58,679 nucleotides of DNA from a plasmid. The stretch is from sequence record NC_009704.1; one strand, written 5' to 3'. Positions 16,248 to 51,134 of the stretch are shown here, piece by piece; position 1 is the first letter of the stretch, and each line of letters opens with the position of its first letter. Made by a program: the position numbers and the translations under genes. The notes beneath the pieces were generated by a model. It made no database searches. It was not told the DNA's origin and saw nothing but the letters and a program-made list of their open reading frames with translations.

Positions 16248-16868
16248 ATGGTTTTCCTTGATCTACCACCTCAATTACATGAGCGCGTTGTTTGTTCAAT
16301 TACCTCTGCATTAAAGTACGAGGTACCGGCCAACATTGTACTTGGTATCGCTGAAAAAGAAGGCGGTAAGCCAGGGCAATGGGTCAAAAATACCAACGGT
16401 ACTCACGATGTTGGCCCATTACAGTTTAATACTCAGTATTTAAAAGAATTAAGCAAGTATGGTATTACCGCAGAAGATGTCGCTCAAGCAGGGTGTTATT
16501 CATATGATCTTGCTGCCTGGAGGTTGCGTGGCCATCTTATGAATGACAAGGGAGATATATGGACAAGAGCCGCCAATTATCATTCCCGAACACCAAAGTT
16601 TAATGCGCCATATCGTGCTGACCTGATACAGAAAGCAACTAAATGGGGAGATTGGCTTGAAGCGCGATTTGTAACTTATACGGTTACGACTCCTGGAGCG
16701 GCACCTGCGAGGATTGCTAGCAGAATTACGACTGTAGCCAAACCACAAAATGAAATTGTAAAAAAAACAATTGAAGTTAAATCGATTAGTAATATTGAAA
16801 AAAAATACAATCCGGCAGCAGCTCAAGCGCTTGCTTCCGTATTTGCTCCAAAAATGGGAAATAATTAA
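16248..16868 (+). CDS. trbN: TrbN-like lytic transglycosylase
   Basis: AGGAG ribosome-binding site before the ATG at 16248. SLT-like motifs: GIAEKEGG, GPLQFN, AAWRL. Confidence 0.7.
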   Translation: MVFLDLPPQLHERVVCSITSALKYEVPANIVLGIAEKEGGKPGQWVKNTNGTHDVGPLQFNTQYLKELSKYGITAEDVAQAGCYSYDLAAWRLRGHLMNDKGDIWTRAANYHSRTPKFNAPYRADLIQKATKWGDWLEARFVTYTVTTPGAAPARIASRITTVAKPQNEIVKKTIEVKSISNIEKKYNPAAAQALASVFAPKMGNN

Positions 16869-16986
16869 TACAGGTATCACTCAGTTTTAAACGGTTAAAT
16901 GTAGTTAAAATTTGCTAACTCACAAAATCCCCAATTCTGGCGTGATTTTGGCGGAGCTTGCCCAATAGATAGAAAGGCATTTAAAA

Positions 16987-17466
16987 ATGAAAAACTGGTA
17001 TCTGTTATCATACAAATATGGACAGGTTAACAGAGTTCAATTTGGTTTAGATAGATTAGGCGTTAATAGTTTCAGCCCAAGTATACAGGTGAAAAAAGTT
17101 AGATCTGACAGCGGAACTATACGCCTTGTAAATGAACCGATGTTTCCTACATATTTATTTGTAGAGTTTGATATTGAGTCAATACATACAACAACAATAA
17201 GTTCAACACTTGGCGTAAATTACTTTGTCAAGTTCGGAACAGAACCAAAACCAATTCCGTTATCACTAATACACCAACTAATGAATAGGTCTGAATGTAG
17301 TAGTCAAAGAAATGAAGAAATCGATGAAATAGCTACTATCCCAGATAAAAAATTACGCTGTGCTTTATTTATTAAGTTGATAACACAGATACCAGATAGT
17401 TTTGAACAAAATTCATTAATTAAAACTCATCATTTACCAGCTACACATCAAACATTATCTAGCTAA
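16987..17466 (+). CDS. RfaH/NusG-paralogue transcription antiterminator with a divergent C-terminal domain
   Basis: The N-terminal domain is near-identical in pattern to E. coli RfaH (WYLL.YK.GQ...EPMFPTYLFVEFD.ESIHTTTISSTLGVNYFVKFG). The C-terminal 60 aa are unlike the KOW domain. Confidence 0.7.
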   Translation: MKNWYLLSYKYGQVNRVQFGLDRLGVNSFSPSIQVKKVRSDSGTIRLVNEPMFPTYLFVEFDIESIHTTTISSTLGVNYFVKFGTEPKPIPLSLIHQLMNRSECSSQRNEEIDEIATIPDKKLRCALFIKLITQIPDSFEQNSLIKTHHLPATHQTLSS

Positions 17467-17488: not shown

Positions 17489-18421
17489 ATGCAAAGAGAA
17501 ACCCAATTATTCATCATGGTAGCAATCATTATGTCATCATCAGTATACGCTGATGATGGCAGTGATGATATTTATCGTATAAGCGATGACTATATATCAA
17601 ACATTCAAATTGAACGTCCTATATTAGTGAGCAGCAATACACAAAGTCGCCTACTATCGGCTTCATCATCCTCTCCGCAGATTGTAGAACCACCTAAAAA
17701 ACCGACCATACAACTTGTCGCTCTCAACAACATAATTCAAAGTGGGACACCCTCACCAATTGAATTCAGAGGGAGTGGGGCTGATAATCAGTCGTTCTAT
17801 GACGCAATACGAAAAATAGCGCCTACTGGATGGACAATATCAATCTCAAGCGACATAGATAAAGATTTCAAAAATAAGAAATTCAAATGGGTAGGAAATG
17901 ACCTATGGTTGAATATTCTGCAAAGGGTTTTAGCTGAGAATAATATTAACGGTTATGTAAACTGGTCATTAAAGAGAATTTCATTTGTTTATCCACAAAA
18001 TGAAAAAAACAAGCAAACTGCATTGATTACACCAAATGTTCCGGTGACCACAACCTCAGTTGCCGTTCAGAACGATAACAAGAACCCATTTAATAGCAAG
18101 AGTGCTATTAGCAAACCGACTCCAGAAAAAATAATACCGCCACTAAAAATATGGAATGCCAATGTGGGATTAACGCTACACAGTACACTTCTAAAATGGA
18201 GTGGTGAAGTGCCATGTAACATTATAGGCAAGTGGACTATAAACTGGAACTCTTCAAAGGATTACTCGATAGACTCAGCTTTAACATTCAGAGGCGAATA
18301 TCTTGATGCAGTAACCCAGCTTTTTAATTTGTATAAAAAAGCAAATTCCCCGTTATTTATTGATGTATATAAAACACAATGTTTAATAATTGTTAGCGAT
18401 GCTAGCGAAAATAAAAAATAA
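17489..18421 (+). CDS. Pilus assembly protein with two TcpQ/PilL-like repeats
   Basis: Signal peptide. Two internally repeated segments with W...G.TL...L..W...G patterns. First gene of the pil cluster. Confidence 0.4.
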   Translation: MQRETQLFIMVAIIMSSSVYADDGSDDIYRISDDYISNIQIERPILVSSNTQSRLLSASSSSPQIVEPPKKPTIQLVALNNIIQSGTPSPIEFRGSGADNQSFYDAIRKIAPTGWTISISSDIDKDFKNKKFKWVGNDLWLNILQRVLAENNINGYVNWSLKRISFVYPQNEKNKQTALITPNVPVTTTSVAVQNDNKNPFNSKSAISKPTPEKIIPPLKIWNANVGLTLHSTLLKWSGEVPCNIIGKWTINWNSSKDYSIDSALTFRGEYLDAVTQLFNLYKKANSPLFIDVYKTQCLIIVSDASENKK

Positions 18422-18433
18422 TTTGGGCGACAT

Positions 18434-20140
18434 ATGAAAATTAAATTAATAACTGCTTGTGTCATGGCGGCGCTGCTTTCTGGTTGCTCAATTGGCCGTA
18501 TTAATAAAGTAATAGACTCCGCGCAGTCAGATTCTGAAAAAGTCAGCAATATGATTGCAGAAACGGCAACTGTTAGACCGCCAGTTAAAATCCATGATGA
18601 GCAATGGATTAACCCTATTCCGATTAAGTCAGCAACAGCAGATATTCCGGCAGCAATGATTAATTGCGTGATCACTTATAAACCAGTACGGCCTCAAGAT
18701 GTGTATCAGTTCGGCCAGGACGTTACGCAGCAGTGCAATATTCCAGTTCGAATTTCACCTGATGCAGCCGCTATGTTATCAGGCAATAACAGCACTGGAG
18801 GGGGGGGACGGCCAACCAATCAAATGAGCAGCGTTCCAGCTCCGATTGTTCCCCCTGAAGCTAACGGCATGGTTCCACTACAGACGTTGGGAACCATGCA
18901 ACCAGGTAACAATGGTAGCGTGGCTTATAGCGGCGGTGTAGCCCGTAAAATTACAGATGTGGCATTCTCTGGCAACGTGGCACGTCTACTCGATATTGTC
19001 ACCTCTCGCCTTGGCGTGTCGTGGCGATATGCAAACGGTGAAATCACTATTTTCTATCTCCAAACTAAGCGATTTGATATCGATACGACTAATGCAAAAT
19101 ATACATTAGAAAATCAGCAAAAAAGTGGCTTATCCACTCAAAGCGGAAGCAATGGCACTGGTGAAAAATCAAGTGGGATATCTGGTACTAGCGGCTCTAA
19201 CACACTGCAAACAACTGAAATGTCGAATGATATCTATGGAGACATTCAAAAAACGGTTGAAAGTATGTTAACGCCAGGAGTAGGGCGAGTAAGCATAAAT
19301 CAAACCTCTGGTGTCGTTGTTGTAACCGATGTTCCCAACGTGGTGCGTAATATTGGTGAGTATCTGCAAGATGAGAACAGTAAACTTTCCAAACAGGTTT
19401 TATTTAAAGTTGTCATTTACACTATTACATCTGAAGTTTCTGATAATGTCGGAATTGATTGGGATATTATCTTTAAATCCCTATCAGGAAAATATGGTAT
19501 AAACCTTGCCAGCTCATCAGGATTAAGTACCGATTTGGCAAATGGGAGCTTTGAAATTTTAGATACTGCTACAGGTAAAGCAGCTCAATTTGCCGGTTCT
19601 CAGTTCATGCTTCAAGCATTGTCAAAACAAGCGAATGTAACAGATACAAAAACACTTAATTTGATGACCACAAACTTAGCTACGGCTGGTTTATTAATCG
19701 GTAAACAAACGACTTATTTACAGCGTTCATCTATAACTTCAATAGGTAGTGGTAATTCTTCTGAACCGGTTCAGTCATTAGAACCAGGACAAATAACCAC
19801 TGGTACTAATATTGTTATATTACCAAAAATATTAAATGATAATGAAAAGATGATGTTGACAATGATGTTAGATATAACGTCATTAAATAAATTAAGGAAA
19901 ATAGATACCGCAGATAAAAAATTAAGTATTGAAGGGCCGGATTCTGATTCCAGTTCTATTCCACAACGGATTTGGTTGAAACCAGGTGAAACAATCCTAA
20001 TGAGTGGCTTTGAACAGATTGTGAAGGATGGCAGTAAGCAGGGCATGGGTGATCCTAATAATATTATAATGGGCGGTAACATGTCGGGCAGTGATAAGAA
20101 ACAGTCCTTCGTCATTACTATTACGCCTATTCTTCGCTAA
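18434..20140 (+). CDS. pilN: PilN-like secretin lipoprotein (type IVb pilus)
   Basis: Lipobox LLSGC. 568 aa. Secretin-like C-terminal region. Size and order match R64 pilN. Confidence 0.6.
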   Translation: MKIKLITACVMAALLSGCSIGRINKVIDSAQSDSEKVSNMIAETATVRPPVKIHDEQWINPIPIKSATADIPAAMINCVITYKPVRPQDVYQFGQDVTQQCNIPVRISPDAAAMLSGNNSTGGGGRPTNQMSSVPAPIVPPEANGMVPLQTLGTMQPGNNGSVAYSGGVARKITDVAFSGNVARLLDIVTSRLGVSWRYANGEITIFYLQTKRFDIDTTNAKYTLENQQKSGLSTQSGSNGTGEKSSGISGTSGSNTLQTTEMSNDIYGDIQKTVESMLTPGVGRVSINQTSGVVVVTDVPNVVRNIGEYLQDENSKLSKQVLFKVVIYTITSEVSDNVGIDWDIIFKSLSGKYGINLASSSGLSTDLANGSFEILDTATGKAAQFAGSQFMLQALSKQANVTDTKTLNLMTTNLATAGLLIGKQTTYLQRSSITSIGSGNSSEPVQSLEPGQITTGTNIVILPKILNDNEKMMLTMMLDITSLNKLRKIDTADKKLSIEGPDSDSSSIPQRIWLKPGETILMSGFEQIVKDGSKQGMGDPNNIIMGGNMSGSDKKQSFVITITPILR

Positions 20141-20149
20141 GGAGTATTT

Positions 20150-21484
20150 ATGGCTACTGAAACGAAGGAAAGGAAAAAGATACGGGTAGTAACTTATAAC
20201 AATAAACAATTTGTCGTCGGGCTGGAATGGAGAAGTATTACTGGCGGCAGAAACTTTATGAAAGAAGTAAAGCGAATAGGCAAAGAGGAAAAACTTGATG
20301 TTGTTGCAATAAGACAGACGGAATCAGTCCAAGCCGGTTTTGCTCCACAAACAGACATTCCATTGAAAGGGAAGTATTCATTTTCAATTTCACTTGTCTC
20401 TCTGTTACCTGGTCGCTGGATTGGTGTATTTCCTGTTGCCCCTGATGATGCAAGTAATAATGAATATATTATTATTGCTACATCAGATGGGATTATATTC
20501 CCTGCAACAGATAAGATAATCATGGAAGATGAAGTTGAGCAAGAGGTTAACGACCTTAAATCTCGACTATCGCTAGGTGAAGGTAAAGTTGAGATATACG
20601 GTGACGCAAAAAAATTCTTTTGGGTAACGTCTGAGATTTCTTTAAGTGAAATTTTAGCGGCTAAAAACCTGAAGAAAGAATATAAGCTGAAACTGTTAAC
20701 ATGGGGATTAACCAAAAAGCAGATCTACTTCTTTATTGCCTTATTTATCGCTGCATTGTTTGCCCTTTATTTAGTGAATGTGTATCTCGAAGCGAAAGCC
20801 GAAGAGGAAAGGCTTGAAAGAGTCGAAGCCAGAAAGAAAGCGGAAAAGATTAACGAAGAGGCCAGATATAAAGCCAGTCTGGACAGTTTAAAACATCCGT
20901 GGGTAACACAAGCGTCTATTCAAAACTTCATCAAAACGTGTGATAGCAAACTTCCAGAGATTCCTTTGTCTTTGGCTGGACGTAAGCCTGTCACACTTGA
21001 TTGTAGCCATAACAGTATGGACGTTCTCTATGAAAGGTTAGACGGTTCTTCAGTGGGCAGTACAGAGTTTAAAGAAAAGGTAGAACAGTTATTTAATACC
21101 ACCCCGTCATTTAACATGAAACAGCCCTCTATCGTGGGATTTTCTCTGGCGTTAGATAACAAACCGGATGGTGATGATCCAGTTGCATCGATGAGTGAGC
21201 AGTTGAATAAGTTTGTTACGTTACTTCAGCGAAATAATATTGAGTTCACTTTAACTGATGCGCCATCCCCTGAAAAAAAGTTTGATGGTCAAGGGGTGGA
21301 GCTACCCTTACCTGACTGGAGAGAAATATATTTCTCTTATGATTCGATGTATCCACCGCGAGATATATTTAAACAGAACAATTTAAGCGGTATGAGAGTT
21401 ACAAACATCATATACGTCATTAACAATGATACATCTGAAATTTTATATAAGGTAAAAGGGGTTATTTATTATGGTAAAAAGTAA
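20150..21484 (+). CDS. pilO: PilO-like pilus assembly protein
   Basis: 444 aa. Position follows pilN. Confidence 0.45.
   Translation: MATETKERKKIRVVTYNNKQFVVGLEWRSITGGRNFMKEVKRIGKEEKLDVVAIRQTESVQAGFAPQTDIPLKGKYSFSISLVSLLPGRWIGVFPVAPDDASNNEYIIIATSDGIIFPATDKIIMEDEVEQEVNDLKSRLSLGEGKVEIYGDAKKFFWVTSEISLSEILAAKNLKKEYKLKLLTWGLTKKQIYFFIALFIAALFALYLVNVYLEAKAEEERLERVEARKKAEKINEEARYKASLDSLKHPWVTQASIQNFIKTCDSKLPEIPLSLAGRKPVTLDCSHNSMDVLYERLDGSSVGSTEFKEKVEQLFNTTPSFNMKQPSIVGFSLALDNKPDGDDPVASMSEQLNKFVTLLQRNNIEFTLTDAPSPEKKFDGQGVELPLPDWREIYFSYDSMYPPRDIFKQNNLSGMRVTNIIYVINNDTSEILYKVKGVIYYGKK
20652..20667. promoter_or_regulatory. KorB operator (OB) inside pilO
   Basis: TTTTAGCGGCTAAAAA. Encodes LAAK in frame. 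Confidence 0.65.
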
Positions 21485-21914
21485 GCTAATAAAGAATAGA
21501 GTTTATTTTCTATTGCTATCTATAATCATCTCTTGTTCTGTCAGTGCAAATGAAATAAGTGAAGTTAAATCAGTTTGGGATTTAGATGTATTGCAAAGCC
21601 AAACTACTTACCTTAAAGCCTTAGCTGCGTTTCAGGAAGCTAAAGATAAAAGCGGTGGAACAATGCCGATTGTCGGGAGTGTTGCACCAGGGGTTAACTC
21701 CGCACAAAAAATACTCTTACCACAAGTTATTAAAATTGTGGGTAATGGCAGTGGTCTATCGGTGAGATTGGTTTTATCTAATGGTACAGAAATGACCAAG
21801 AAGAAAGGCGACTCTATACCAGGGGGATACAAACTAACAAAAGTAACTCTTGATGAAGTGAGTATTTCTGATGCTGCGGGGACGTCCTTTATTCTTAGTG
21901 AGGTTGGCTCATGA
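21471..21914 (+). CDS. pilP: PilP-like
   Basis: 147 aa with a signal peptide. Position matches. Confidence 0.4.
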   Translation: MVKSKLIKNRVYFLLLSIIISCSVSANEISEVKSVWDLDVLQSQTTYLKALAAFQEAKDKSGGTMPIVGSVAPGVNSAQKILLPQVIKIVGNGSGLSVRLVLSNGTEMTKKKGDSIPGGYKLTKVTLDEVSISDAAGTSFILSEVGS

Positions 21915-23443
21915 AAGTTTTAAATTTATCCGGTATTGATGGTGTTGCTGATTATCATTTGCCAGCAAAATTAAAAGATGCAATGTGTCTGGTCAAAACA
22001 GATTTAGGCAATATTGAATTAAGGGTGTCAAGCCACTTAATTAACTCTGCTGAAGTCATGGATTATGAGCGACAACTAAAAAAAACAAACACGGAATTTA
22101 AATTAGTTCCATCCAATATAGCTGAGATTGTAGAGCTTAATCAGCAAAGTGGGGTAACAACTCAAGAGCAGTTGAATATTATTCACGGTAAAATATTTGA
22201 AATTTTTTCGGCGGCAACAGACGCGAGATCGTCCGATATACATTTTCGTTTACGCAGTAAGTTATGCAATGTCTTTTTTAGAGTTGATGGGAAGTTAAGG
22301 TTCTATAAAGAGTTAACGCCAGAAGATGGTAAGTCATATATTAACTCTCTCTTCAATACACGGTGCGAAGACCGGAGTCATCAGTCAATTTCCTACCAAG
22401 AACCTTGTGGGGCGAAAGTTAGCGAGGATTTTGTACAGCCATTGGGGTTAAGTGGAGGGCGCTTTGCCAGTCGGCCTGTTGCTGATGGGGGGATGGTTGC
22501 TGTTATTCGTCTTATCTCTCGACGAAATGAAATTCTGTCAATGGAACAGCTGGGTTTAACTGACACTGAAATAGAAACGTTGGAGCGGGCTATAGCAAAG
22601 CCTACCGGAGTGATATTTCTAACCGGCCCTATGGGATCGGGGAAAAGTACCCTGGCTCAGGTTGTTTGTGAACTGCTCACCAGTCGAGATCCAGGGATAC
22701 ACCTGTTAACGGTGGAGAACCCTGTGGAATCCCCTATTAAAGGTGCCGTTCAAACGTCACTTGGAACGGGAGAAGAGTGGTGGGAAGCAATTAAAAGCAT
22801 GATGCGCCTGGATTTGAACTGGATACTGATTGGTGAAGTACGAGATCCCCTTTCTGCTTCAGCAGCTATTGAAGCGGCTCAAACCGGCCACAATGTACTG
22901 ACAACAATCCATACCACATTTCCTATTGATACTATTTCTCGGTTAAAAAGTCTTAATGTACAAAGTGATTTGATTACTGATGCGTCATTGATTACCTGCC
23001 TGGTTGGTCAACGACTGGCTCCAAAGCTGTGTCCCTCATGTAAACAAAAGTACACCGATAGCAGCAAATCGGTTGCACCAGTAATTAAAAAGATTATTGA
23101 TAAACACTGTGATATTGACAGTATTTATTTGAAAAACCCTCAAGGATGTACTGAATGCTCAGGGGCTGGAGTAAAAGGCCGAGTGGGTATATTTGAAGTC
23201 ATTGAAGTCGATGCAAACTTTATGGATATTTATCATAGCCAGGGGAAGATAAAGGCTTATGAACATTGGTATATAAATGGTGGTGCCACATTATGTACTA
23301 ACACTCTTCGTTTAGTTAATACCGGCGAAATCGACCCTGTTTTAAGTCATAAAGACGTTTGTAATTTGGATCGCGATTATCTCATCTTTACTGATGAAGT
23401 GAGAGCCGCAGCCAAAGTGAATAGAGAGAAGATAAATGAATAA
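21911..23443 (+). CDS. pilQ: PilQ-like GspE-family assembly ATPase
   Basis: Walker A GPMGSGKST. CxxC zinc motifs. 510 aa. Confidence 0.8.
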   Translation: MKVLNLSGIDGVADYHLPAKLKDAMCLVKTDLGNIELRVSSHLINSAEVMDYERQLKKTNTEFKLVPSNIAEIVELNQQSGVTTQEQLNIIHGKIFEIFSAATDARSSDIHFRLRSKLCNVFFRVDGKLRFYKELTPEDGKSYINSLFNTRCEDRSHQSISYQEPCGAKVSEDFVQPLGLSGGRFASRPVADGGMVAVIRLISRRNEILSMEQLGLTDTEIETLERAIAKPTGVIFLTGPMGSGKSTLAQVVCELLTSRDPGIHLLTVENPVESPIKGAVQTSLGTGEEWWEAIKSMMRLDLNWILIGEVRDPLSASAAIEAAQTGHNVLTTIHTTFPIDTISRLKSLNVQSDLITDASLITCLVGQRLAPKLCPSCKQKYTDSSKSVAPVIKKIIDKHCDIDSIYLKNPQGCTECSGAGVKGRVGIFEVIEVDANFMDIYHSQGKIKAYEHWYINGGATLCTNTLRLVNTGEIDPVLSHKDVCNLDRDYLIFTDEVRAAAKVNREKINE

Positions 23444-24500
23444 GTTTAATCGTGCTCTTTATAAAATGACGTTCAATGTTAATGACCGAGAGGATGTTTA
23501 TGACAATTTCAGACAATATCTTATAGATGGTCAGTCTGTTGATAATACATTCAAGAATTTGATTGTTAATTATACCCGGCGAGGGAGAAAACCCAATAGC
23601 CCGATGGCTGAGATTATAAGGGAATGGGAAGAGAAATTTAAGTTGGGCGATACATTAGGTGAGTCTTTGAGAGAATGGATACCCGAACAGGAGCTAAGTG
23701 TCATAGATGCTTGTGATACTGCTGGACGGCCTTGGGATGGTTTTCAAAAAGCAATCAAGATAGCAAGATCTGCGGAAAGAATTAAAAAAACTATCAAGGG
23801 TGCCTTTTTTACCAGCATCTACATGTTTTTACTTTCTTTTATTTTACTGGCTTTTGCTTGCTCACTCCTTGTCCCTACATTGCTCGAAGCCGTGCCTTTA
23901 TTTAGATGGAGTACCACACAGAAATTTGTTTATTATTTTTATATATTTATCAGTGGTTATTGGTGGGCATTAATTGCCGTTTGTTTGATAGTTGGATATA
24001 TTATTTATCATTCATTAGACAGATGGACAGGCAACTCACGATTTCATGCTGATAAGTTTGTTCCGTATTCTCTATATAAAGAAATGCATGGCGCAACATT
24101 TATTATCAATGTAGACGCGATGTTGTCAGCGGGAATACCACTAAAAGATTCACTGATTAAAATACGGAACATGTCTGATTCTGATTGGTTGATAGAAAGG
24201 GTGAATGGTGCAATATCAGGTTTAACTGAGGGGGAAGAAAATTTAGGGCTAGCATTAGATATTTCTAACTTTGAATTTCCAAGTGAAGACGCAATTATTA
24301 AAATGCAGAGCCTTTTTGAAACCGCGAATAAAGAAGGTTCATTAGAGCGTTTTGGTGAACGTCAACTTGAAAATACAATATCGAGAGTCGAAAGAAAAAC
24401 AGCAGTCATTAAAGTTGCAAGTATGGTTTTTGGTGCCGGTTGCACCGTAGGAATCTTCTTTGTCATGTACAGTTTAATTCAACAAGTCTTTGGCATTTAA
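23436..24500 (+). CDS. pilR: PilR-like GspF-family platform membrane protein
   Basis: 354 aa polytopic membrane protein following the ATPase. Confidence 0.6.
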   Translation: MNKFNRALYKMTFNVNDREDVYDNFRQYLIDGQSVDNTFKNLIVNYTRRGRKPNSPMAEIIREWEEKFKLGDTLGESLREWIPEQELSVIDACDTAGRPWDGFQKAIKIARSAERIKKTIKGAFFTSIYMFLLSFILLAFACSLLVPTLLEAVPLFRWSTTQKFVYYFYIFISGYWWALIAVCLIVGYIIYHSLDRWTGNSRFHADKFVPYSLYKEMHGATFIINVDAMLSAGIPLKDSLIKIRNMSDSDWLIERVNGAISGLTEGEENLGLALDISNFEFPSEDAIIKMQSLFETANKEGSLERFGERQLENTISRVERKTAVIKVASMVFGAGCTVGIFFVMYSLIQQVFGI

Positions 24501-24516
24501 ATAGGAATATAAATAG

Positions 24517-25023
24517 ATGAAAATTTTAAAGAAAGGTCTTAACGCTATTACTGATGAAACGATTGCTAAAGTCGTTGGCTTTCTATTCCTGGCAGGTGTG
24601 GTTGTTGCCGGTGTTGTTCTAAATGGTAAAATAGGCTCAACAACAATGGTGAATGCAATGAGTACATTACTCAATGAAGCTAAGGGGTTAAGAACGTCAG
24701 CGGGGTACGGTACAGGAGATCTAACGCCAGCGTTGATACGCTCAAAATCCATTCAGAAAGGGCTAAAAATTGATGGTGATAAACTTTATAACCCAACTAA
24801 CGGGCCTGTCACTATTACGGGATCTGGAATGACCTTTACATTAGCAACCAGTAAAGTGAAAGATGAAGATTGTATGAAACTGGCGACAACATTAAGTGGT
24901 GCTGATATTGAGTCAATGAAGATAAATAGCGGCTCAACCGTAACAAGTGAAATGTCACAAATAGATGCGGCTAATCAATGCAACGCAGGAAAAGAAAATA
25001 CAATTTCAATTACTTCTTACTAA
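24517..25023 (+). CDS. pilS: PilS-like type IVb major prepilin
   Basis: N-terminus KKGLNAIT...hydrophobic helix, sharing the KKGLxAI motif with the downstream PilV-like protein. Confidence 0.5.
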   Translation: MKILKKGLNAITDETIAKVVGFLFLAGVVVAGVVLNGKIGSTTMVNAMSTLLNEAKGLRTSAGYGTGDLTPALIRSKSIQKGLKIDGDKLYNPTNGPVTITGSGMTFTLATSKVKDEDCMKLATTLSGADIESMKINSGSTVTSEMSQIDAANQCNAGKENTISITSY

Positions 25024-25038
25024 TATATAAGGTCTATT

Positions 25039-25992
25039 GTGACAGAATCCTTGCTCAAAGATTCTGGCTTTGTTGATTTATATCTTGGTGATGATTATAC
25101 CGATATAAAAGGCATGATAGGGGCAAGCAATAGGCTTGCCCCTGCGCCAGAAATATTAAAAAACGATATCGAGAGTTTAAGACAACAATGTTTGAATTTT
25201 TATCATGCAGAAAAAAGGAATGAATTCTCTATTTTTTATGGTGAACGGTTGTACAGGGTAACAACAACTATTGATGTTTATCAAAATATTGGTTTTGTTA
25301 TCAGACAAACGCCGAATGAATTATTCACTCTACAAAAAGTAGGTCTATCATCTGATCTTATAAAGCTCATCAGCCAGAATAATAATTCTGGTTTAGTTTT
25401 AGTTTCAGGAAAAATGGGAGCAGGGAAGACAACCACGGCAGCGGCTATGATTTGCCACAGAATTAAGGAGAGCGGAAACCTTGGTGTTTCAATAGAAGAT
25501 CCGATAGAAACATTACTCGGTGGAAAACATGGTGATGGTCGCTGTATTCAACTGGAAGTCTCTGATAATGAGGGATACCCGCTAGCGATAAAGCGGGCCT
25601 TGAGAATGGGGGCCAATAATATCCTCATAGGGGAAATACGAGACGCGCAGACAGCCCATGAAGTCATGAAAGCATCTCTGAATGGTGCATTCATTGTTGC
25701 TACGATTCATGCGAATAATTGTATTGATGCAATTGAACGATATTCTATTTTCTGTAATGAAATAAACAGTAAAGCAAACTCGATAATTGCAAAATCACTT
25801 TTTATTGTCACTAATCAAGTGTTAATGCCATCTATATATGAAAGTAATATAAGAGGTTATACATGTACAGTGAATGGTTACGATATTCGCGCGAGTACAA
25901 CTATTCAGGCAAAAATCAGAGACGGAAATTTCCAAACCTTAAAAGATGAATTTGACAGCATCAATCAAAAGCAAATGCGACATTCTCTATAA
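25039..25992 (+). CDS. Small GspE/PilT-like ATPase (possible retraction-type ATPase)
   Basis: Walker A GKMGAGKTTT. Motifs IEDPIE and ILIGEIRD. 317 aa. GTG start. Confidence 0.55.
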   Translation: MTESLLKDSGFVDLYLGDDYTDIKGMIGASNRLAPAPEILKNDIESLRQQCLNFYHAEKRNEFSIFYGERLYRVTTTIDVYQNIGFVIRQTPNELFTLQKVGLSSDLIKLISQNNNSGLVLVSGKMGAGKTTTAAAMICHRIKESGNLGVSIEDPIETLLGGKHGDGRCIQLEVSDNEGYPLAIKRALRMGANNILIGEIRDAQTAHEVMKASLNGAFIVATIHANNCIDAIERYSIFCNEINSKANSIIAKSLFIVTNQVLMPSIYESNIRGYTCTVNGYDIRASTTIQAKIRDGNFQTLKDEFDSINQKQMRHSL

Positions 25993-26004
25993 TATGAGGT
26001 GGTA

Positions 26005-27261
26005 ATGAAAAAATTTAAAAAAGGGTTGGCGGCGATATCAGGGCAAACAATCGCTTTAATTGCTGGCCTAATTGTACTGGCAACAATTACCGTACCGGCA
26101 GTGAATCTGCTTCAACGTGACCAGTCATACAGCGTGGCGGCGAGTCACGCTAATCGTGTAGAGAAAGCCGTTAATAAATATATTCTTGAACAATCCGCTA
26201 TTGTTGGTGCGGGATCTACAGCCAGTAGTCCTTATACTATTGATGTTCCGTTGTTAATCAGTAAAGGGTATTTGCCTAGTGGCTTTGCCGCACAAAATAA
26301 TTTCTCAAGTACCTATAAAACGCTAGTTTTCCAACCTTCGACGCAAAAATTCCATAGCATGACCTTTCTTGATGGGGGAACTCAGCTAAGCATGAGCGCT
26401 GCCAGGAAGTTTGCGACACGAATTGGTGATAGTGGTGGCGTCATTGAAAACGGGGTTGCCAATGGCGTACAGGGCTTATGGAGCGAAAACCTATCAGCAT
26501 TCGGGGGGTTTAATCCAGGCGATGGCCATGTCGTGATCGCGGGGTTCTTCTCAAATGGCTCTGTGGTAAACGAGTATTTGTACCGTAAAGCCGTGCCTGG
26601 TCATCCAGAGCTTAATACTATGAGTACAGCGCTAAATATGGGCGCAAATGATATCAACGCCGTTCGTGATCTCAATGCGGCAGGTAATGCCGTGGTTCAA
26701 GGCAATATTACAGCAGGGAACACCGTTACGGCCACCGGTACAGTTAAAGCCGCTACCACGGACACAAGCGGAGAGACGTATACCGGCGGCTGGTTTCGAA
26801 CAAGGGGTGATACAGGTTGGTACTCTGAAAAGTGGGGCGGCGGTTGGCATATGACCGATGGAACTTGGCTAAGAGCGTATGGCGGTAAATCAATCTATAC
26901 CGCAGGTATTGTGCAAGCGGCAACGTTCCAGCCTGGGCAGGTAAGTGTTGTTAACACAGCATGTCCTGAAAGCGGGCGTATAAGTCGTGATGCGACTGGA
27001 GCCATACTGAGCTGTCAATCCGGTGTGTGGGCCACCAGTGGGAAAGTAGTGGTTATCAACGGCTATAACCCTACATGCCCTGCCAATAAAATTCCCGTGG
27101 CGCGCTATTGGACACAGGCAGGGGGAAGTAATTACGGCGATTATTGCTCACTACAAACAGGGTGGGCGGGAGTAACAACACCGAGTTGTGAGTCGTGTGC
27201 AAATTGGGAAAAGTGTCATATGGTGTACTCCCAAACTTGGTCTGCCACAGCTTGTAGCTGA
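26005..27261 (+). CDS. pilV: PilV-like minor pilin/adhesin
   Basis: AGGTGG ribosome-binding site before the ATG at 26005. Prepilin-like N-terminus KKGLAAISGQTIALIAGLIVLA. Large Gly-rich C-terminal domain. Confidence 0.5.
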   Translation: MKKFKKGLAAISGQTIALIAGLIVLATITVPAVNLLQRDQSYSVAASHANRVEKAVNKYILEQSAIVGAGSTASSPYTIDVPLLISKGYLPSGFAAQNNFSSTYKTLVFQPSTQKFHSMTFLDGGTQLSMSAARKFATRIGDSGGVIENGVANGVQGLWSENLSAFGGFNPGDGHVVIAGFFSNGSVVNEYLYRKAVPGHPELNTMSTALNMGANDINAVRDLNAAGNAVVQGNITAGNTVTATGTVKAATTDTSGETYTGGWFRTRGDTGWYSEKWGGGWHMTDGTWLRAYGGKSIYTAGIVQAATFQPGQVSVVNTACPESGRISRDATGAILSCQSGVWATSGKVVVINGYNPTCPANKIPVARYWTQAGGSNYGDYCSLQTGWAGVTTPSCESCANWEKCHMVYSQTWSATACS

Positions 27262-27278
27262 TTAGTCCGTTATCCGCA

Positions 27279-27306
27279 CCGACACAACCTGTGTCGGTAT
27301 ATATTC
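27279..27306 (+). terminator. Rho-independent terminator after pilV
   Basis: CCGACACA-acc-TGTGTCGG followed by a T-rich tract. Confidence 0.6.
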
Positions 27307-27494
27307 CTATTACTCATCGCTTTAAACGAGATTAAAGGTGAACATTCAATACCTAATGACTAGGGTTAAATATTTAGCTATAGAGTTAATCCAACCCAAA
27401 TTATTAGCCCCCATCTTATTGATTATGCTTATTCTGATATTTACTTTATCAATTTGGATAAACATGCTATTAGAATAATTTTCACGAGGAAATA

Positions 27495-27896
27495 ATGAAA
27501 TATAAATCACTGCCAAAAGAATTAGAATTAATTGAATATAGCATATCAAATGTCAATCTAGGGGAAAGAAAAGAAAATATTGAAAATGGTTTTAAACAAC
27601 TCTTATTAGCATGTGATGGAAAAGGTGATAGTGATTTTTATGGTGAAGCTGTTAAATTAAAATGCCTACTTATTAAACAGCGAAATACTCTCCGAATTTC
27701 AGGATGTGAAGAAGATTCTTTGCACAATTTAACCGCAGCCATCGAATTTATTAAGGATTTATCTTGGAGCTATTTTAGAACTACACTTCAAGCAGAAAGC
27801 ATTGCTGATACGATAAGCTTGTATTTTGGCCCATGTTTGTTTGCACTAGTAATAACTACATTTTCCTTTGGAGCTTACATATTAATAACGAGGTAA
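27495..27896 (+). CDS. Hypothetical protein (AT-rich segment)
   Basis: 133-aa ORF with a C-terminal TM helix. No recognisable motifs. Confidence 0.3.
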   Translation: MKYKSLPKELELIEYSISNVNLGERKENIENGFKQLLLACDGKGDSDFYGEAVKLKCLLIKQRNTLRISGCEEDSLHNLTAAIEFIKDLSWSYFRTTLQAESIADTISLYFGPCLFALVITTFSFGAYILITR

Positions 27897-27900
27897 TGCC

Positions 27901-28332
27901 ATGCTAGGAACAAATACCATGATGGTTATATTGTTTATTTTTATTGGAGCAATTAGCTATAGAGCAGTAAATGAAAACAACAGACAAGCTACAGTAATAG
28001 CTTATGATCAAGCTGCTGCAACAACATTTTTCCTTTATGTTGAACAGTTAGATGGATTTTTAAGTGCTAATCCAACATTTACAGGGAGTGTAACTACTCA
28101 GATTCAATTTCCGGCATGGTTAAATGAAAATAAAGACATAATGATGTATGTAGAAAATGGGCGTGGTTATGTTTATATGTCAGCTAAATCGAACGTTTAT
28201 GATTCACTCGTTTCTCGAACTGAAAACTCGTCAATGATTGGATTAACAGACAGTAACAGCATAATAACCAATTTGGGGCCAATTCCTAAACCGTCCGTAA
28301 TTCCACAGAACTATATTGTGTATATGATTTGA
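27901..28332 (+). CDS. Hypothetical membrane-anchored protein
   Basis: 143 aa with an N-terminal TM helix. Possibly a pilus accessory protein. Confidence 0.3.
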   Translation: MLGTNTMMVILFIFIGAISYRAVNENNRQATVIAYDQAAATTFFLYVEQLDGFLSANPTFTGSVTTQIQFPAWLNENKDIMMYVENGRGYVYMSAKSNVYDSLVSRTENSSMIGLTDSNSIITNLGPIPKPSVIPQNYIVYMI

Positions 28333-28967
28333 GGAATATTCTATTGGCTAACATCCTGTTTTTTTTAGTATCAATAATCACAACAACGGCTATTGCATAT
28401 TTACTACCAGCTATTGTTTCAAGAGCAGAGCAGGAAGTCCTTTCACAGTATGACGAAGTTAAGTTAGCGTCACAATATCGAACAGCGGTTGAACCTTTGC
28501 TGGCTCTTTTCCTGGCTTGTGTGGCTCCTGTTTTTTATGCGGTACAAAGTGATATCACTTTGTCTGTGTTTATTGGCTTGTTAGCGCTAGTGAGTTACAT
28601 CGATATAATGAGGCAATGGGTGCCAGATATCTTAATCCATTTGCTGAGCTGGTACAGCCTGAGTTGCTTAGCGCTTGGATTCATTACTTCAGATGTGCTC
28701 TATTCACTGCTTTCCTTACTGCTATTGCTGCTACCGTTCCTTGCTATCAATGCTTACAGTTGGATAAAGAATAGGAGCTACATCTATGCATCGGGTGATA
28801 TCTACATTTTACTCTCTGTCGGCCTATGGCTAGATTATCGTTTTGCTTTATCAGCTGCCGCGCTAAGCATTTTATCCGCATCAATTTACGCAAAAATAGC
28901 GGGAAAAGAGAAAGTACCGTTTGTTCCCTTTATCTTATTTTCGCTACTTGTATTTTCTACTATATAA
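28329..28967 (+). CDS. pilU: A24-family prepilin peptidase (PilU/TadV-like)
   Basis: Polytopic. Motifs SYIDIMRQWVPD and ASGDIYILL correspond to the two catalytic Asp motifs (D..IP and GGDVKL). Confidence 0.55.
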   Translation: MRNILLANILFFLVSIITTTAIAYLLPAIVSRAEQEVLSQYDEVKLASQYRTAVEPLLALFLACVAPVFYAVQSDITLSVFIGLLALVSYIDIMRQWVPDILIHLLSWYSLSCLALGFITSDVLYSLLSLLLLLLPFLAINAYSWIKNRSYIYASGDIYILLSVGLWLDYRFALSAAALSILSASIYAKIAGKEKVPFVPFILFSLLVFSTI

Positions 28968-28985
28968 CCAATTTGGAATGCACAG

Positions 28986-29492
28986 ATGAAAGATATAGCT
29001 CAGGGATTTATATTGATACTAACGTTATTAGTGCCACTAAGTAGTTATGCATATTGCTTTCAAGCAGCTGGTGACACTTATCAAATAGACCCTTTATTGC
29101 TTATATCTATCGCTGATGTAGAAAGTAGTATGAATTATAAAGCTATCGGGCAAAATAAAAAGAATGGCGTAGTGAAGTCAGAAGACCTTGGGCTAATGCA
29201 GATAAATACATCTTGGCTACCAAAGCTAGGGAAATCATTCGGTATTACTCGTGAGCATCTATTAAATAACCCCTGTCAGAATGTTTATGTCGGGGCTTAT
29301 GTTTTAGCAAATAACATATCTAGCAATGGTGTTAATTGGGAGTCAATTGGTGCTTATAACGCCGGTTTTAAAAGCGCGAATGAAGAGTTTAGGCTTAGGT
29401 ATGCTAAAAAAGTATACAGTAAATACATAAATTTATTGCGTGGCAATAGAGCGATAATTATTGCCAAGGCAAGTCGAGGCGAACGGGTATAA
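28986..29492 (+). CDS. Lytic transglycosylase (R64 PilT-type)
   Basis: Signal peptide. SLT motifs ESS, GLMQIN, AYNAG. Confidence 0.75.
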   Translation: MKDIAQGFILILTLLVPLSSYAYCFQAAGDTYQIDPLLLISIADVESSMNYKAIGQNKKNGVVKSEDLGLMQINTSWLPKLGKSFGITREHLLNNPCQNVYVGAYVLANNISSNGVNWESIGAYNAGFKSANEEFRLRYAKKVYSKYINLLRGNRAIIIAKASRGERV

Positions 29493-29516
29493 AGTCATAA
29501 ATAAAAGGAGTCACAG

Positions 29517-30002
29517 ATGAGCATAAACAATAAAGACATTGAATTATTAAAACTAATTCTAATTAATAGAGATAAAGATATAGTTAAAATGAAAATAAAT
29601 ATACGAAATCATGAGAAAATCCGTGGGAATATCAAGATATCTTTAGCGGCATTTATAATAATATTTATAGGGGGTTTTATTGTTGAATTTAAAGGTTTTA
29701 CGTTATTTATACTAATTGCATTAGGTGCATCCATACCTATTCATCTATATCAACTAAAAAAACACACTACATCACCAGAGGCGTTAAACATATCATCTTT
29801 AAATGATGAGATGATAGCTAACATTAGCAAATCTGGAAGTAAAGAACTTAAAGATGAACTACATAAACTTGTTGTTGCTCATGGTTATATAACATATTCA
29901 GGGATAAGTGGTATCTTAAACGAAAACAACAAGGAAGAGAACAAACAAAGACTAAGTGAACTTATTAATAATGTAGGCAGTCAAGTAATATTAAAACCGT
30001 AA
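29517..30002 (+). CDS. Hypothetical membrane protein
   Basis: Two TM helices. AT-rich. Confidence 0.3.
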   Translation: MSINNKDIELLKLILINRDKDIVKMKINIRNHEKIRGNIKISLAAFIIIFIGGFIVEFKGFTLFILIALGASIPIHLYQLKKHTTSPEALNISSLNDEMIANISKSGSKELKDELHKLVVAHGYITYSGISGILNENNKEENKQRLSELINNVGSQVILKP

Positions 30003-30035
30003 GTTATTAATATAACAACTTAGAGCGATGTTATT

Positions 30036-30335
30036 ATGAAAAAAATAGTTATTCTACTTTTGTCTCTAGCCATTTGTTTTTCATCTTTACCGGCTAAAGC
30101 TGCTGATGCTTGTGAAGTAGTTATTTGCATGTATGGAAAAGTAACAGGAAACTCACAGAAAGAATGTAGCGGGGCTGAAGGTGATTTTTTTGGTTTGAAT
30201 GGATTTAAAAAGAAAGGCCGGTTTGATCCCACAAAAACAGCTGAAATGCGCCAATCATTCTTAGAGCAATGCTCAACAGCTGATCCCGCCAAAGTTAGTC
30301 AGATTATAAGTGTGTTTGGTCGTATAAGGGGTTGA
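30036..30335 (+). CDS. Small secreted Cys-containing protein, possibly TrbM-like
   Basis: Signal peptide. Pattern CEVVICMYGK...C...C. Lies at the end of the transfer region, where trbM would be expected. Confidence 0.3.
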   Translation: MKKIVILLLSLAICFSSLPAKAADACEVVICMYGKVTGNSQKECSGAEGDFFGLNGFKKKGRFDPTKTAEMRQSFLEQCSTADPAKVSQIISVFGRIRG

Positions 30336-30716: not shown

Positions 30717-30796
30717 CTCTTCTTACCATAGAAAATGGCCCGATAACTTGGGCCTTTCTTCTAAAAGACAACCTCAAATATAAACAAGGAATACTT

Positions 30797-50412: not shown

Positions 50413-50526
50413 TTACCCCCTAACTCCCATTGAATTAAGCACTAAGGCGGCGGTAGCCAGCCAGCCTCGCAGAGCAAGATTCCCATTGAGTGCCGGAGGC
50501 GCGAATAAGGGAGAGTGAAGATAGAT

Positions 50527-51123: not shown

Positions 51124-51134
51124 GAATTAACATC

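What the first reader, a model, noticed from the sequence alone, without database searches (positions are those of the whole stretch)
16987..17466. Plasmid-encoded RfaH paralogue with a replaced C-terminal domain, directly upstream of the type IVb pilus operon
The N-terminal NGN domain is strongly RfaH-like, including the residues around EP(M/L)FP.YLFVEFD and HTTTI.
The last ~60 aa are unlike the RfaH KOW domain, which in RfaH recruits the ribosome.
Position and orientation suggest an operon-specific antiterminator for the 12.5-kb pil operon, and possibly for trb.
Only a degenerate ops-like sequence (GGCGGAGCTTG, about 16950) is seen upstream, so the recruitment element may differ.
Basis: partly seen in the sequence, partly recalled or inferred. 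Interest (0 to 1): 0.55.

Follow-up and report, generated by a model that had tools for sequence, protein, structure and literature searches.

The report
Plasmid RfaH-like regulator heading pilus operon
This is a real plasmid gene for an RfaH-type transcription elongation factor that most likely keeps RNA polymerase going through the conjugative type IVb pilus operon; regulators of this kind are already known on other plasmids, so it is a new member of a known class with some instructive peculiarities.

Summary
The ORF at 16987-17466 (+) is real. It encodes 159 aa with a strong RfaH-like NGN domain (aa 1-99), and it is under purifying selection.

- **C-terminus:** it has no KOW motif, but it is not a foreign replacement. 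It is a trimmed RfaH C-terminal domain. The roughly 16-19 residues carrying the KOW signature are missing. The second helix and the residues that hold RfaH in its autoinhibited state are kept (I95, I115, R124 paired with E50, I129, I132). IncX3 PrfaH (crystal 9ik0) and R64 TraB lack the KOW signature in the same way.
- **"Degenerate" ops:** it is an invariant 17-mer, GATTTTGGCGGAGCTTG (16944-16960), and occurs once in the plasmid. Its core GCGGAGC is ops without T6. The same core sits upstream of distant plasmid paralogues from Serratia, R64 and Vibrio. A hairpin with compensatory changes always precedes it.
- **Matching change in the protein:** the residues that form the T6 pocket in RfaH (H20, Q24, R73) are replaced.
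- **Synteny:** in two unrelated transfer backbones the gene sits directly before pilN, so the target is pil, not trb.

Verdict: a new member of the known PrfaH/ActX/TraB class of plasmid antiterminators, of moderate interest. All function is inferred.

The parts
16923..16950 (+). Leader stem-loop, CAAAATCCCCA[ATTC]TGG(C)G(T)GATTTTG. Its U-rich 3' arm abuts the ops-like core.
   Evidence: RNAfold gives an 11-pair hairpin here. A hairpin ends 0-4 nt before the core in all nine lineages examined, and the stems differ in sequence (R64, Vibrio, Pseudomonas, Serratia). The G.U pairs are tolerated only on the sense strand. A comparable terminal hairpin arises by chance in 0.12-0.2 of background windows per locus, so the evidence is suggestive, not proof.
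16944..16960 (+). Invariant 17-mer GATTTTGGCGGAGCTTG. It contains the ops-like core GGCGGAGCTTG (16950-16960) and the predicted non-template-strand mini-hairpin GCGGAGC (16951-16957). It lies at -43 to -27 from the ATG.
   Evidence: Identical in the window, Y. massiliensis, Xenorhabdus, L004 and L005. It occurs once in the 58.7-kb window. The same core is found upstream of distant paralogues in Serratia, R64 and Vibrio. It equals ops GGCGGTAGnnTG minus T6.
16973..16978 (+). Shine-Dalgarno-like GAAAGG, 9 nt before the ATG.
   Evidence: Read from the sequence.
16987..17283 (+). NGN domain (aa 1-99) of the RfaH-like protein.
   Evidence: Pfam NusG E 1e-17. RfaH in the PDB E 4e-26. dN/dS 0.16. AF2 pLDDT 82-94.
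17284..17394 (+). Short linker plus mini alpha-hairpin (aa 100-136; predicted helices 107-116 and 121-133). This is a trimmed homologue of the RfaH C-terminal domain without the KOW motif.
   Evidence: Alignments. hhalign P 0.004. Both AF2 runs predict these helices. dN/dS 0.11-0.49. No KOW hit.
17395..17466 (+). Variable, probably disordered tail (aa 137-159) and the stop codon.
   Evidence: pLDDT below 50. dN/dS about 1 or higher, and the length varies among relatives.
17489..27261 (+). Presumed target: tightly packed type IVb pilus genes (TcpQ/PilL-like, pilN, O, P, Q, R, S, T/U, V).
   Evidence: ORFs with gaps of 22 nt or less, or overlapping. Annotation of the 98%-identical Y. massiliensis plasmid. 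Pfam TcpQ and Shufflon_N.
27495..30335 (+). Distal co-oriented genes, probably in the same transcript: orf133, pilM, prepilin peptidase, lytic transglycosylase, orf161, trbM-like.
30737..30754 (+). Strongest terminator-like hairpin downstream (GGCCCGATAACTTGGGCC, then a T-rich run). Likely the end of the transcription unit.
   Evidence: Pattern scan only.

Best explanation
The gene encodes an operon-specific elongation factor of the RfaH type. It belongs to the same functional class as plasmid PrfaH/ActX (IncX) and TraB (IncI1/pESI).

Proposed mechanism:
1. RNA polymerase transcribing the leader pauses at the ops-like site GGCGGAGCT-T/G (16950-16960). This site keeps the G(-10), Y(-1), G(+1) pause consensus.
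2. The non-template strand folds into the mini-hairpin GCGGAGC, which presents a single flipped base (G5).
3. The NGN domain reads this hairpin, using the retained K10, R16 and R23. The T6 pocket of RfaH (H20, Q24, R73) is gone, which matches the missing T6 in the DNA.
4. The factor then stays on RNA polymerase and suppresses pausing and termination through its own gene and the roughly 13-kb AT-rich pil operon.

The short C-terminal alpha-hairpin probably acts as the autoinhibitory lid that makes recruitment depend on the DNA element. It has probably lost the beta-barrel (KOW) state that RfaH uses to bind ribosomal protein S10.

A conserved hairpin immediately 5' of the core may stabilise or position the pause.

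Shown here: homology, architecture, conservation, synteny. Inferred: every functional step.
For: - **Protein family:** NGN homology to RfaH. The HTTT motif, E48 (E50 here) and I93 (I95 here) are retained.
- **Selection:** purifying selection on the NGN and on aa 100-136; neutral evolution of the tail.
- **C-terminal domain:** aa 112-134 are colinear with RfaH 126-148. The known interdomain contact residues of autoinhibited RfaH (I129, R138, L142, L143, I146; PMC12168481) correspond to I115, R124, F/L128, I129 and I132. Of these, I115, R124, I129 and I132 are invariant in the family.
- **Structure prediction:** the AF2 model (pLDDT 81.7) has helices 107-116 and 121-133. It superposes best on autoinhibited RfaH 5ond (134 columns, rmsd 2.1 A, TM 0.83), against 106 columns for NGN-only active RfaH.
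- **Solved relative:** PrfaH, which also lacks the KOW motif, has a solved two-helix C-terminal domain 'remarkably similar' to RfaH (alignment).
- **DNA element:** an invariant 17-mer, single copy, at -43 to -27. The experimentally mapped PrfaH site lies at -42 to -25. The GCGGAGC core recurs upstream of paralogues that are only about 30% identical, in Serratia, R64 and Vibrio.
- **Hairpin chemistry:** both GCGNNAGC (the ops form) and GCGNAGC (this element) are described as extraordinarily stable DNA mini-hairpins (PMC13037366 abstract).
- **Co-variation:** the T6 pocket residues are defined in PMC5995543. They are lost in all seven paralogues examined whose element lacks the T. H20 is kept in RfaH and PrfaH, whose sites have the T.
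- **Synteny:** the gene stays with pilN across two transfer backbones.
- **Homologue genetics:** PMC5013300 and PMC11880322.
Against: - There is no experimental datum for this protein or this element.
- No sigma-70 promoter was predicted in 16869-16950, so the transcription start site is unknown and the element might be very close to the promoter.
- Nearest-neighbour DNA folding of the element is no better than shuffled sequence.
- The P. aeruginosa relative has GAGGAGC, which breaks the proposed C:G pair.
- The confident AF2 model depends on RfaH-like sequences in the alignment. With the six family members alone, pLDDT is 43.5. AlphaFold has also seen RfaH structures.
- Similarity of the C-terminal domain to RfaH is statistically modest.
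- The terminator-like sites in the pil operon are no more frequent than chance: 12 found against 10.4 expected. What the factor would override is therefore unspecified; Rho or H-NS is inferred.
Confidence: 0.6

Rival explanations
1. The conserved block is a promoter or operator rather than an ops-type recruitment site. One candidate is a sigma-54 promoter, TGGCGTG-ATTT-TGGC (16938-16952), with GG-N10-GC spacing. Another is a repressor-binding inverted repeat, CAAAATC-N14-GATTTTG. On this view the protein acts elsewhere or without a specific site.
For: - The GG and GC dinucleotides are at the correct sigma-54 spacing. It is one of only three such matches in the window.
- Conservation extends 12 nt upstream of the ops-like core.
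- No sigma-70 promoter was predicted in the intergenic region.
- An inverted repeat is present.
Against: - The -12 element would be TGGC, not TTGC.
- The eight invariant bases after the GC are not explained by a sigma-54 promoter.
- The R64 spacing is off by one, and the P. aeruginosa version lacks the -12 C.
- No GAFTGA-type activator motif is encoded on the plasmid.
- The conserved upstream TGG is explained as part of a hairpin stem that changes sequence between lineages while keeping its pairing. That pairing includes G.U pairs that a double-stranded DNA operator would not tolerate.
- The element travels with the paralogue gene across unrelated backbones.
Confidence: 0.12
2. The protein is in effect an NGN-only, constitutively active antipausing factor. 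The C-terminal segment would be a passive tail or stabiliser, with no autoinhibition and no dependence on a specific DNA site for loading.
For: - By established knowledge, the isolated RfaH NGN domain is sufficient for antipausing.
- The KOW motif is absent.
- The last 23 residues evolve neutrally.
- The first helix varies by 0-2 extra EID repeats among Yersinia variants.
- Removing 14 C-terminal residues of PrfaH has no effect.
Against: - aa 112-136 are under purifying selection (dN/dS 0.12-0.39).
- Exactly the RfaH interdomain contact residues are conserved, including the E48-R138 pair.
- An invariant cis element accompanies the gene.
Confidence: 0.15
3. The C-terminal domain is still metamorphic. 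After release from the NGN it would refold into a reduced beta structure that still contacts ribosomal protein S10, so the protein would couple transcription to translation as RfaH does.
For: - The segments equivalent to RfaH beta2-beta3 are retained (aa 112-134).
- There is faint similarity to beta4-beta5: NTEF in RfaH against HSEF or CSKF in relatives.
- Several pil genes have weak Shine-Dalgarno sequences.
Against: - The beta1 strand and the glycine-rich KOW signature are deleted.
- The putative beta4-beta5 region is the neutrally evolving, length-variable tail.
- It is predicted to be disordered.
Confidence: 0.1
4. The gene is a decaying remnant of rfaH that lost its C-terminal domain and has no function.
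For: It scores below the cut-offs of the RfaH equivalog models, and its C-terminus is truncated and divergent.
Against: - The reading frame is intact in all eight 90%-identity clusters found.
- dN/dS is 0.11-0.16 between close pairs.
- The position and the cis element are conserved.
- No KOW remnant is present in the other reading frames.
Confidence: 0.03

Closest known systems
PrfaH / ActX of IncX plasmids (PDB 9ik0; PMC11880322)
   Same: - Plasmid-encoded RfaH paralogue at the head of the transfer or pilus operon.
- An NGN domain plus a short two-helix C-terminal domain with no KOW signature. The last helix aligns (aa 114-134 with PrfaH 122-142).
- An ops-like element in its own 5' UTR at nearly the same distance from the ATG: -42 to -25 in PrfaH, -43 to -27 here.
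   Different: - Only 31% identical.
- The PrfaH site, TCGGGGTCATCCGAG, has a different sequence with an essential T in the loop, and PrfaH keeps H20. Here the T and H20 are both absent.
- The linker is about 7-9 residues shorter here.
- The target here is a type IVb pilus operon, not a VirB-type T4SS.
TraB of IncI1 R64 and of pESI (NusG-like activator upstream of traC-pil)
   Same: - It heads a type IVb (thin) pilus operon on a conjugative plasmid.
- There is genetic evidence that TraB activates pil transcription and conjugation.
- The R64 leader carries the same GCGGAGC core preceded by a hairpin ending in TTTTG.
- It has no KOW motif, and R138 is retained.
   Different: - 33% identity over the NGN only.
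- TraB has lost K10, R23, E48 and the HTTT motif, all of which the window protein keeps.
- traC and traD lie between traB and pil in R64, and the window has no homologues of them at that position.
- The backbone here is IncP-like trb rather than I-type.
Chromosomal RfaH (E. coli; PDB 2oug, 5ond, 8pfg)
   Same: - It is the closest protein by sequence: 43% overall, with the NGN matching at E 4e-26.
- The best structural match is autoinhibited RfaH.
- K10, Q13, R16, R23, E48, I93, HTTT and R138 are conserved.
- The DNA element resembles ops and keeps the pause consensus.
   Different: - No KOW motif or beta1 segment, so it probably has no S10-binding beta-barrel state.
- H20, Q24 and R73 are replaced, and the cis element lacks T6.
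- It is encoded next to its target, whereas rfaH is a stand-alone gene.
- It scores below the curated RfaH cut-offs.
LoaP and UpxY (operon-adjacent NusG paralogues)
   Same: Each is encoded at the head of its target operon. Recruitment involves leader elements, and LoaP is reported to use a leader RNA hairpin (own knowledge).
   Different: The sequence relationship is weak (NCBIfam E 1e-5 to 1e-9, far below the cut-offs). Both retain KOW domains.

Membership tests
NusG/Spt5 family | NGN domain | tested here: met
   Pfam PF02357, E 9.6e-18, 64.9 bits against a cut-off of 22.2, aa 2-98. The fold matches RfaH and NusG NGN structures.
NusG/Spt5 family | C-terminal KOW domain | tested here: not met
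   No PF00467 hit at E<=10 for the whole protein or for aa 100-159. The E. coli RfaH control gives a hit at aa 112-128. Alignments show this segment deleted.
RfaH (equivalog TIGR01955 / NF006534) | Score above the curated full-length cut-off | tested here: not met
   113 bits against a cut-off of 124, and 93.6 against 144.5. Only aa 1-107 match.
RfaH (equivalog TIGR01955 / NF006534) | ops-reading residues K10, H20, R23, R73 (PMC5995543) | tested here: not met
   K10 and R23 are present. H20 is G, R73 is L, and Q24 is L.
RfaH (equivalog TIGR01955 / NF006534) | Canonical ops GGCGGTAGnnTG in the target leader | tested here: not met
   The leader has GGCGGAGCTTG, with T6 absent. The only GGCGGTAGC in the window is at 50449, in the oriT region and unrelated to pil.
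RfaH (equivalog TIGR01955 / NF006534) | Autoinhibitory interdomain contacts (E48-R138, I93, I129, L142, L143, I146) | tested here: met
   E50, R124, I95, I115, F128, I129 and I132 occupy these positions. All but position 128 (F or L) are invariant in the family. This is sequence-level evidence only.
RfaH (equivalog TIGR01955 / NF006534) | Fold switch of the C-terminal domain to a beta-barrel that binds S10 | not testable with these tools
   It needs NMR or CD and binding assays. Loss of beta1 and the KOW motif argues against it.
Plasmid RfaH-like activators (PrfaH/ActX/TraB class) | Plasmid-borne, co-oriented, at the head of a transfer or pilus operon | tested here: met
   The window matches the length of pYpsIP31758.2 and is 98% identical to a conjugative Y. 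massiliensis plasmid. The gene lies 22 nt before the pil genes. The arrangement is the same in L002, L004 and L005.
Plasmid RfaH-like activators (PrfaH/ActX/TraB class) | NGN plus a two-helix C-terminal domain without a KOW motif | tested here: met
   Alignment with PrfaH and TraB. Predicted helices 107-116 and 121-133. This is prediction, not a solved structure.
Plasmid RfaH-like activators (PrfaH/ActX/TraB class) | Cognate ops-like site in its own 5' leader, bound on the non-template strand | tested here: inconclusive
   A conserved element is present at the equivalent position. Binding and the transcription start site were not testable.
Plasmid RfaH-like activators (PrfaH/ActX/TraB class) | Required for expression of the downstream operon and for conjugation | not testable with these tools
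   Known only for homologues.

The most novel reading that the evidence does not exclude
The protein and its leader form an orthogonal factor-and-site pair derived from RfaH and ops.
- **The factor:** a one-state RfaH. It has discarded the KOW beta-barrel, and with it ribosome coupling, but kept the alpha-helical lid purely for autoinhibition.
- **The site:** an ops in which the tetraloop-type mini-hairpin GCGGTAGC has been reduced to the triloop type GCGGAGC. This is matched by loss of the T6 pocket in the protein, so host RfaH and the plasmid factor would not cross-talk.
- **The extra hairpin:** a conserved nascent-RNA hairpin abutting the site would help set the loading pause.
- **Distribution:** the same composite leader is shared by TraB-like paralogues across Enterobacterales, Vibrio and Pseudomonas plasmids.
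Probability: 0.35. Interest if true: 0.6.

Novelty: new member of a known kind. Interest (0 to 1): 0.4.

Why it matters
- **Plasmid spread:** NusG paralogues encoded on plasmids switch on conjugation machinery. 1876 of 72,556 plasmid records carry one, so they bear on how plasmids spread.
- **A natural experiment on RfaH:** this small Yersinia/Xenorhabdus subfamily has an NGN closer to chromosomal RfaH than PrfaH or TraB have. It nevertheless lacks the KOW signature and reads an ops without T6. That makes two questions directly testable: whether the alpha-helical state of RfaH's metamorphic domain can persist as a stand-alone autoinhibitory module, and how the specificity of factor for DNA site is re-tuned to avoid cross-talk with the host.
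- **Leads for better-studied plasmids:** the shared GCGGAGC core and the adjacent hairpin give candidate recruitment sites for R64 and pADAP-like TraB proteins. I did not find any such site reported for them.
- **Limits:** none of this changes the known picture in kind. It adds a well-defined variant.

Tried and rejected
- **Scan of genome contigs for the 17-mer.** None was followed by an NGN ORF.
- **Rfam search of 16700-17200.** Nothing significant, and no JUMPstart match.
- **Canonical ops with up to 3 mismatches.** 20 hits against 17 expected, so not informative.
- **Nearest-neighbour DNA folding of the element.** No better than shuffled sequence. The parameters do not capture GNA mini-hairpins.
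- **Promoter and terminator scans.** No sigma-70 promoter in the trbN to rfaH-like spacer. Terminator-like sites in pil are at chance level.
- **Sigma-54 reading of TGGCGTG-N4-TGGC.** Considered and downgraded; see the rival explanations.
- **Frameshifted KOW remnant.** None; the other frames are full of stops.
- **AF2 with the six family members only.** pLDDT 43.5, so unusable as an independent check.
- **RNAalifold on an ungapped nine-lineage alignment.** It recovered only the inner CC/GG stem and the GC[GGA]GC pairs, because stem registers differ between lineages. The hairpin comparison therefore rests on per-sequence folds.
- **P0084 (1226 aa, 14 'matches').** A low-complexity repeat artefact.

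Full report
**What is there**

The window is 58,679 bp. That is exactly the published length of plasmid pYpsIP31758.2 of Yersinia pseudotuberculosis IP31758 (PMC1959361). It is 98% identical over the test region to a conjugative Y. massiliensis plasmid with an IncP-like trb system.

An ORF runs from ATG 16987 to the stop at 17464-17466 on the + strand and encodes 159 aa. It follows trbL and trbN. It is followed after 22 nt by a TcpQ/PilL-like gene and then pilN, O, P, Q, R, S, T/U and V, with gaps of 22 nt or less or overlaps. After one 233-nt gap come orf133, pilM, a prepilin peptidase, a lytic transglycosylase, orf161 and a trbM-like gene. The strongest terminator-like hairpin is at 30737.

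**The protein: N-terminal domain**

- Residues 2-98 match the Pfam NGN domain at E 1e-17.
- The two NCBIfam RfaH equivalog models match aa 1-107 only and stay below their cut-offs.
- E. coli RfaH is the best solved relative, at E 4e-26 over aa 1-99 and 43% identity overall.
- The subfamily is very small. Among 5.8 billion clustered proteins I found eight 90% clusters, all from Yersinia, Xenorhabdus or unnamed assemblies. In 1.84 billion 50%-identity representatives only one cluster scores below 1e-30, and the next is at 3e-26.
- Among 72,556 plasmid records, 1876 carry some NusG paralogue. Only the Y. massiliensis plasmid has one more than 60% identical.

**The protein: C-terminus**

No KOW domain is detected. 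The positive control, E. coli RfaH, gives its weak KOW hit at aa 112-128.

The region is nevertheless not unrelated to RfaH:
- phmmer reports a second colinear stretch, aa 112-134 against RfaH 126-148.
- A profile-profile comparison of the family's C-terminal part with RfaH C-terminal domains aligns the same 23 columns at P 0.004.
- A Smith-Waterman shuffle test gives 32 of 5000 shuffles scoring as well.
- Multiple alignments show that the family lacks the 16-19 residues carrying P-x-G-D-x-V-x-I-x-x-G-x-F-x-G, which are beta1 and the KOW signature. It keeps I....D...R.....LI.

The retained residues are those known to hold RfaH in its autoinhibited alpha-helical state (PMC12168481). I93, I129, L143 and I146 correspond to I95, I115, I129 and I132. 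The E48-R138 salt bridge corresponds to E50-R124. All six are invariant in the family. L142 corresponds to position 128, which is F or L.

Selection analysis:

| Region | dN/dS |
|---|---|
| NGN, aa 1-99 | 0.16 |
| aa 100-136 | 0.11-0.49 |
| aa 137-159 (tail) | about 1 or higher |

The tail also varies in length among relatives.

AlphaFold2, run with an alignment that includes RfaH-like sequences, gives pLDDT 81.7. It predicts an NGN domain, helices at 107-116 and 121-133, and a disordered tail. Its best PDB matches are autoinhibited RfaH structures: 5ond with 134 aligned columns, rmsd 2.1 A and TM 0.83. NGN-only active RfaH aligns over 106 columns.

Two caveats apply. With the six family sequences alone the model collapses to pLDDT 43.5, although the same two helices are predicted. 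AlphaFold was also trained on RfaH structures.

**This architecture is not new**

- IncX3 PrfaH (31% identity, with the alignment running through the last helix) lacks the KOW signature. Its 2.0 A crystal structure shows a two-helix C-terminal domain and is described as remarkably similar to RfaH (PMC11880322).
- R64 TraB, a Serratia pADAP-like paralogue, and most other plasmid paralogues I sampled show the same pattern: no KOW motif, with R138 retained.
- A plasmid gene inside an F-type tra operon of Providencia is, by contrast, a full RfaH with a KOW motif and all the ops-reading residues.

**The cis element**

This block is identical in the window, Y. massiliensis, Xenorhabdus and two I-type plasmid loci. 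Their proteins are only 53-62% identical and their synonymous sites are near saturation (pS 0.5-0.8). The block occurs once in the plasmid. It lies at -43 to -27 from the ATG. The experimentally mapped PrfaH site lies at -42 to -25 of its own gene.

The core GGCGGAGCTTG equals ops GGCGGTAGnnTG with T6 deleted. It keeps G at -10 and T/G at -1/+1, the consensus pause positions (my reading; ops is described as a consensus pause in PMC5995543).

The same GCGGAGC core is found upstream of paralogues that are only about 30% identical:
- Two Serratia plasmids, both heading pil operons: GATTTTGGCGGAGCCTGCC.
- R64 traB: TTTTGCGCGGAGCGTTG.
- A Vibrio plasmid: TTTCGGCGGAGC.
- A P. aeruginosa plasmid has the near-copy TTTTGGAGGAGCGTGCC.

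GCGNNAGC and GCGNAGC are the two described classes of extraordinarily stable DNA mini-hairpins (PMC13037366). The ops sequence GCGGTAGC is of the first class and this element is of the second.

In the RfaH-ops crystal structure, T6 flips into a pocket formed by H20, R23, Q24 and R73. K10, H20, R23 and R73 make the direct contacts (PMC5995543). The window protein keeps K10, R16 and R23 but has G20, L24 and L75. All seven paralogues examined whose element lacks the T also lack H20. RfaH and PrfaH, whose sites have the T, keep it. The number of lineages is small and they are not fully independent, so this co-variation is suggestive only.

**A second conserved feature**

Immediately 5' of the core, 16923-16950 folds into an 11-pair hairpin whose U-rich 3' arm ends at the first G of the core. 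Every lineage with a GCGGAGC-type core has a hairpin ending 0-4 nt before it. The stems differ in sequence:
- CAAAAUC/GAUUUUG in Yersinia and Xenorhabdus.
- GAAAUUGC/GCAAUUUC in Vibrio.
- A 13-pair stem in R64.
- An 11-pair GC-rich stem in Pseudomonas.

The G.U pairs in these stems are acceptable only on the sense strand. A comparable terminal hairpin arises by chance in 12-20% of background windows per locus, so this is supportive rather than conclusive.

The hairpin also explains the conserved upstream TGG, which otherwise resembles a sigma-54 -24 element. If the pause is at about 16959, the stem base lies about 9-10 nt behind the RNA 3' end. A nascent-RNA hairpin at that distance could influence pausing or backtracking. 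This is inference.

**Target**

The gene stays directly upstream of pilN or pilL in two unrelated transfer backbones: P-type trb in the window, Y. massiliensis and Xenorhabdus, and I-type tra in L004 and L005. More distant paralogues head pil operons in Serratia and R64.

The element is single-copy and lies downstream of trb. A role at trb therefore has no support.

Homologue genetics fit the proposed role. Deletion of pESI traB lowers pilV/S/T about 4-fold and abolishes conjugation (PMC5013300). Deletion of prfaH abolishes IncX3 transfer (PMC11880322).

**Conclusion**

The finding is real, and its general interpretation as an operon-specific RfaH-type factor for pil is the best-supported one. 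Two corrections apply. The C-terminal domain is trimmed rather than replaced. The recruitment element is a conserved ops variant rather than a degenerate one.

The class is already known from genetics and from a crystal structure, so this is a new member. The T6-less mini-hairpin, the matching loss of the T6 pocket, the adjoining hairpin, and their presence in R64 and Serratia leaders are observations I did not find in the papers I could search. They are cheap to test.

Noticed in passing
window 1-58679: The window length equals the published size of pYpsIP31758.2 (58,679 bp) of Y. pseudotuberculosis IP31758. That plasmid is described as an IncP-1beta-like conjugative plasmid with a kil/kor system and a type IV pil cluster (PMC1959361). 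The window is probably that whole plasmid. The passages of that paper I retrieved do not mention the NusG-like gene.
   Followed up: partly
window 50449-50457 (+): There is a perfect canonical ops 9-mer, GGCGGTAGC, in the intergenic region between a NikA/TraJ-like gene (50056-50412, -) and traK/L/M-like genes (50746-52300, +). This is the RP4-like oriT region, with the nick-site-like sequence CTTCACCTATCTTGCCC at about 50551. About 0.45 such 9-mers are expected by chance. It could be a host-RfaH site for the traKLM leader or a coincidence.
   Followed up: partly
window 17311-17328; proteins P0002-P0005: The tripeptide EID (GAAATCGAT) in the linker and first C-terminal helix is present once here, twice in P0002/P0003 and three times in P0004/P0005 from Y. 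enterocolitica. This is a 9-bp tandem-repeat length polymorphism inside a regulatory protein.
   Followed up: no
L010 (R64) about 19402-19452 (-); L134 2404-2454; L140 1016-1066; L138 2428-2478; L139 2434-2484: The leaders of R64 traB and of NusG paralogues on Serratia, Vibrio and P. aeruginosa plasmids share the layout hairpin, then TTTT, then G(C/A)GGAGC. This is a candidate common recruitment module for TraB-like factors. I did not find it described in the literature I searched.
   Followed up: partly
window 27262-27494: There is a 233-nt non-coding gap right after pilV (Shufflon_N domain). At this point the Y. massiliensis relative has an extra 633-nt ORF. The only tyrosine recombinase ORF I noticed (38579-39370) is about 11 kb away, so the state of any shufflon here is unclear.
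   Followed up: no
L001 36314-41434 (Y. massiliensis plasmid): The accessory region of the related plasmid is annotated with a second trbK entry-exclusion gene, a T6SS Hcp/TssD gene, and a cluster of a HEPN-domain protein with a CAAX protease. This is unusual cargo for a small conjugative plasmid.
   Followed up: no
L136 2501-2980 (S. Infantis pESI-like plasmid): A further NusG paralogue sits directly upstream of a very large autotransporter gene, not a transfer operon. GGGCGGAGC lies 154 nt upstream of it.
   Followed up: no
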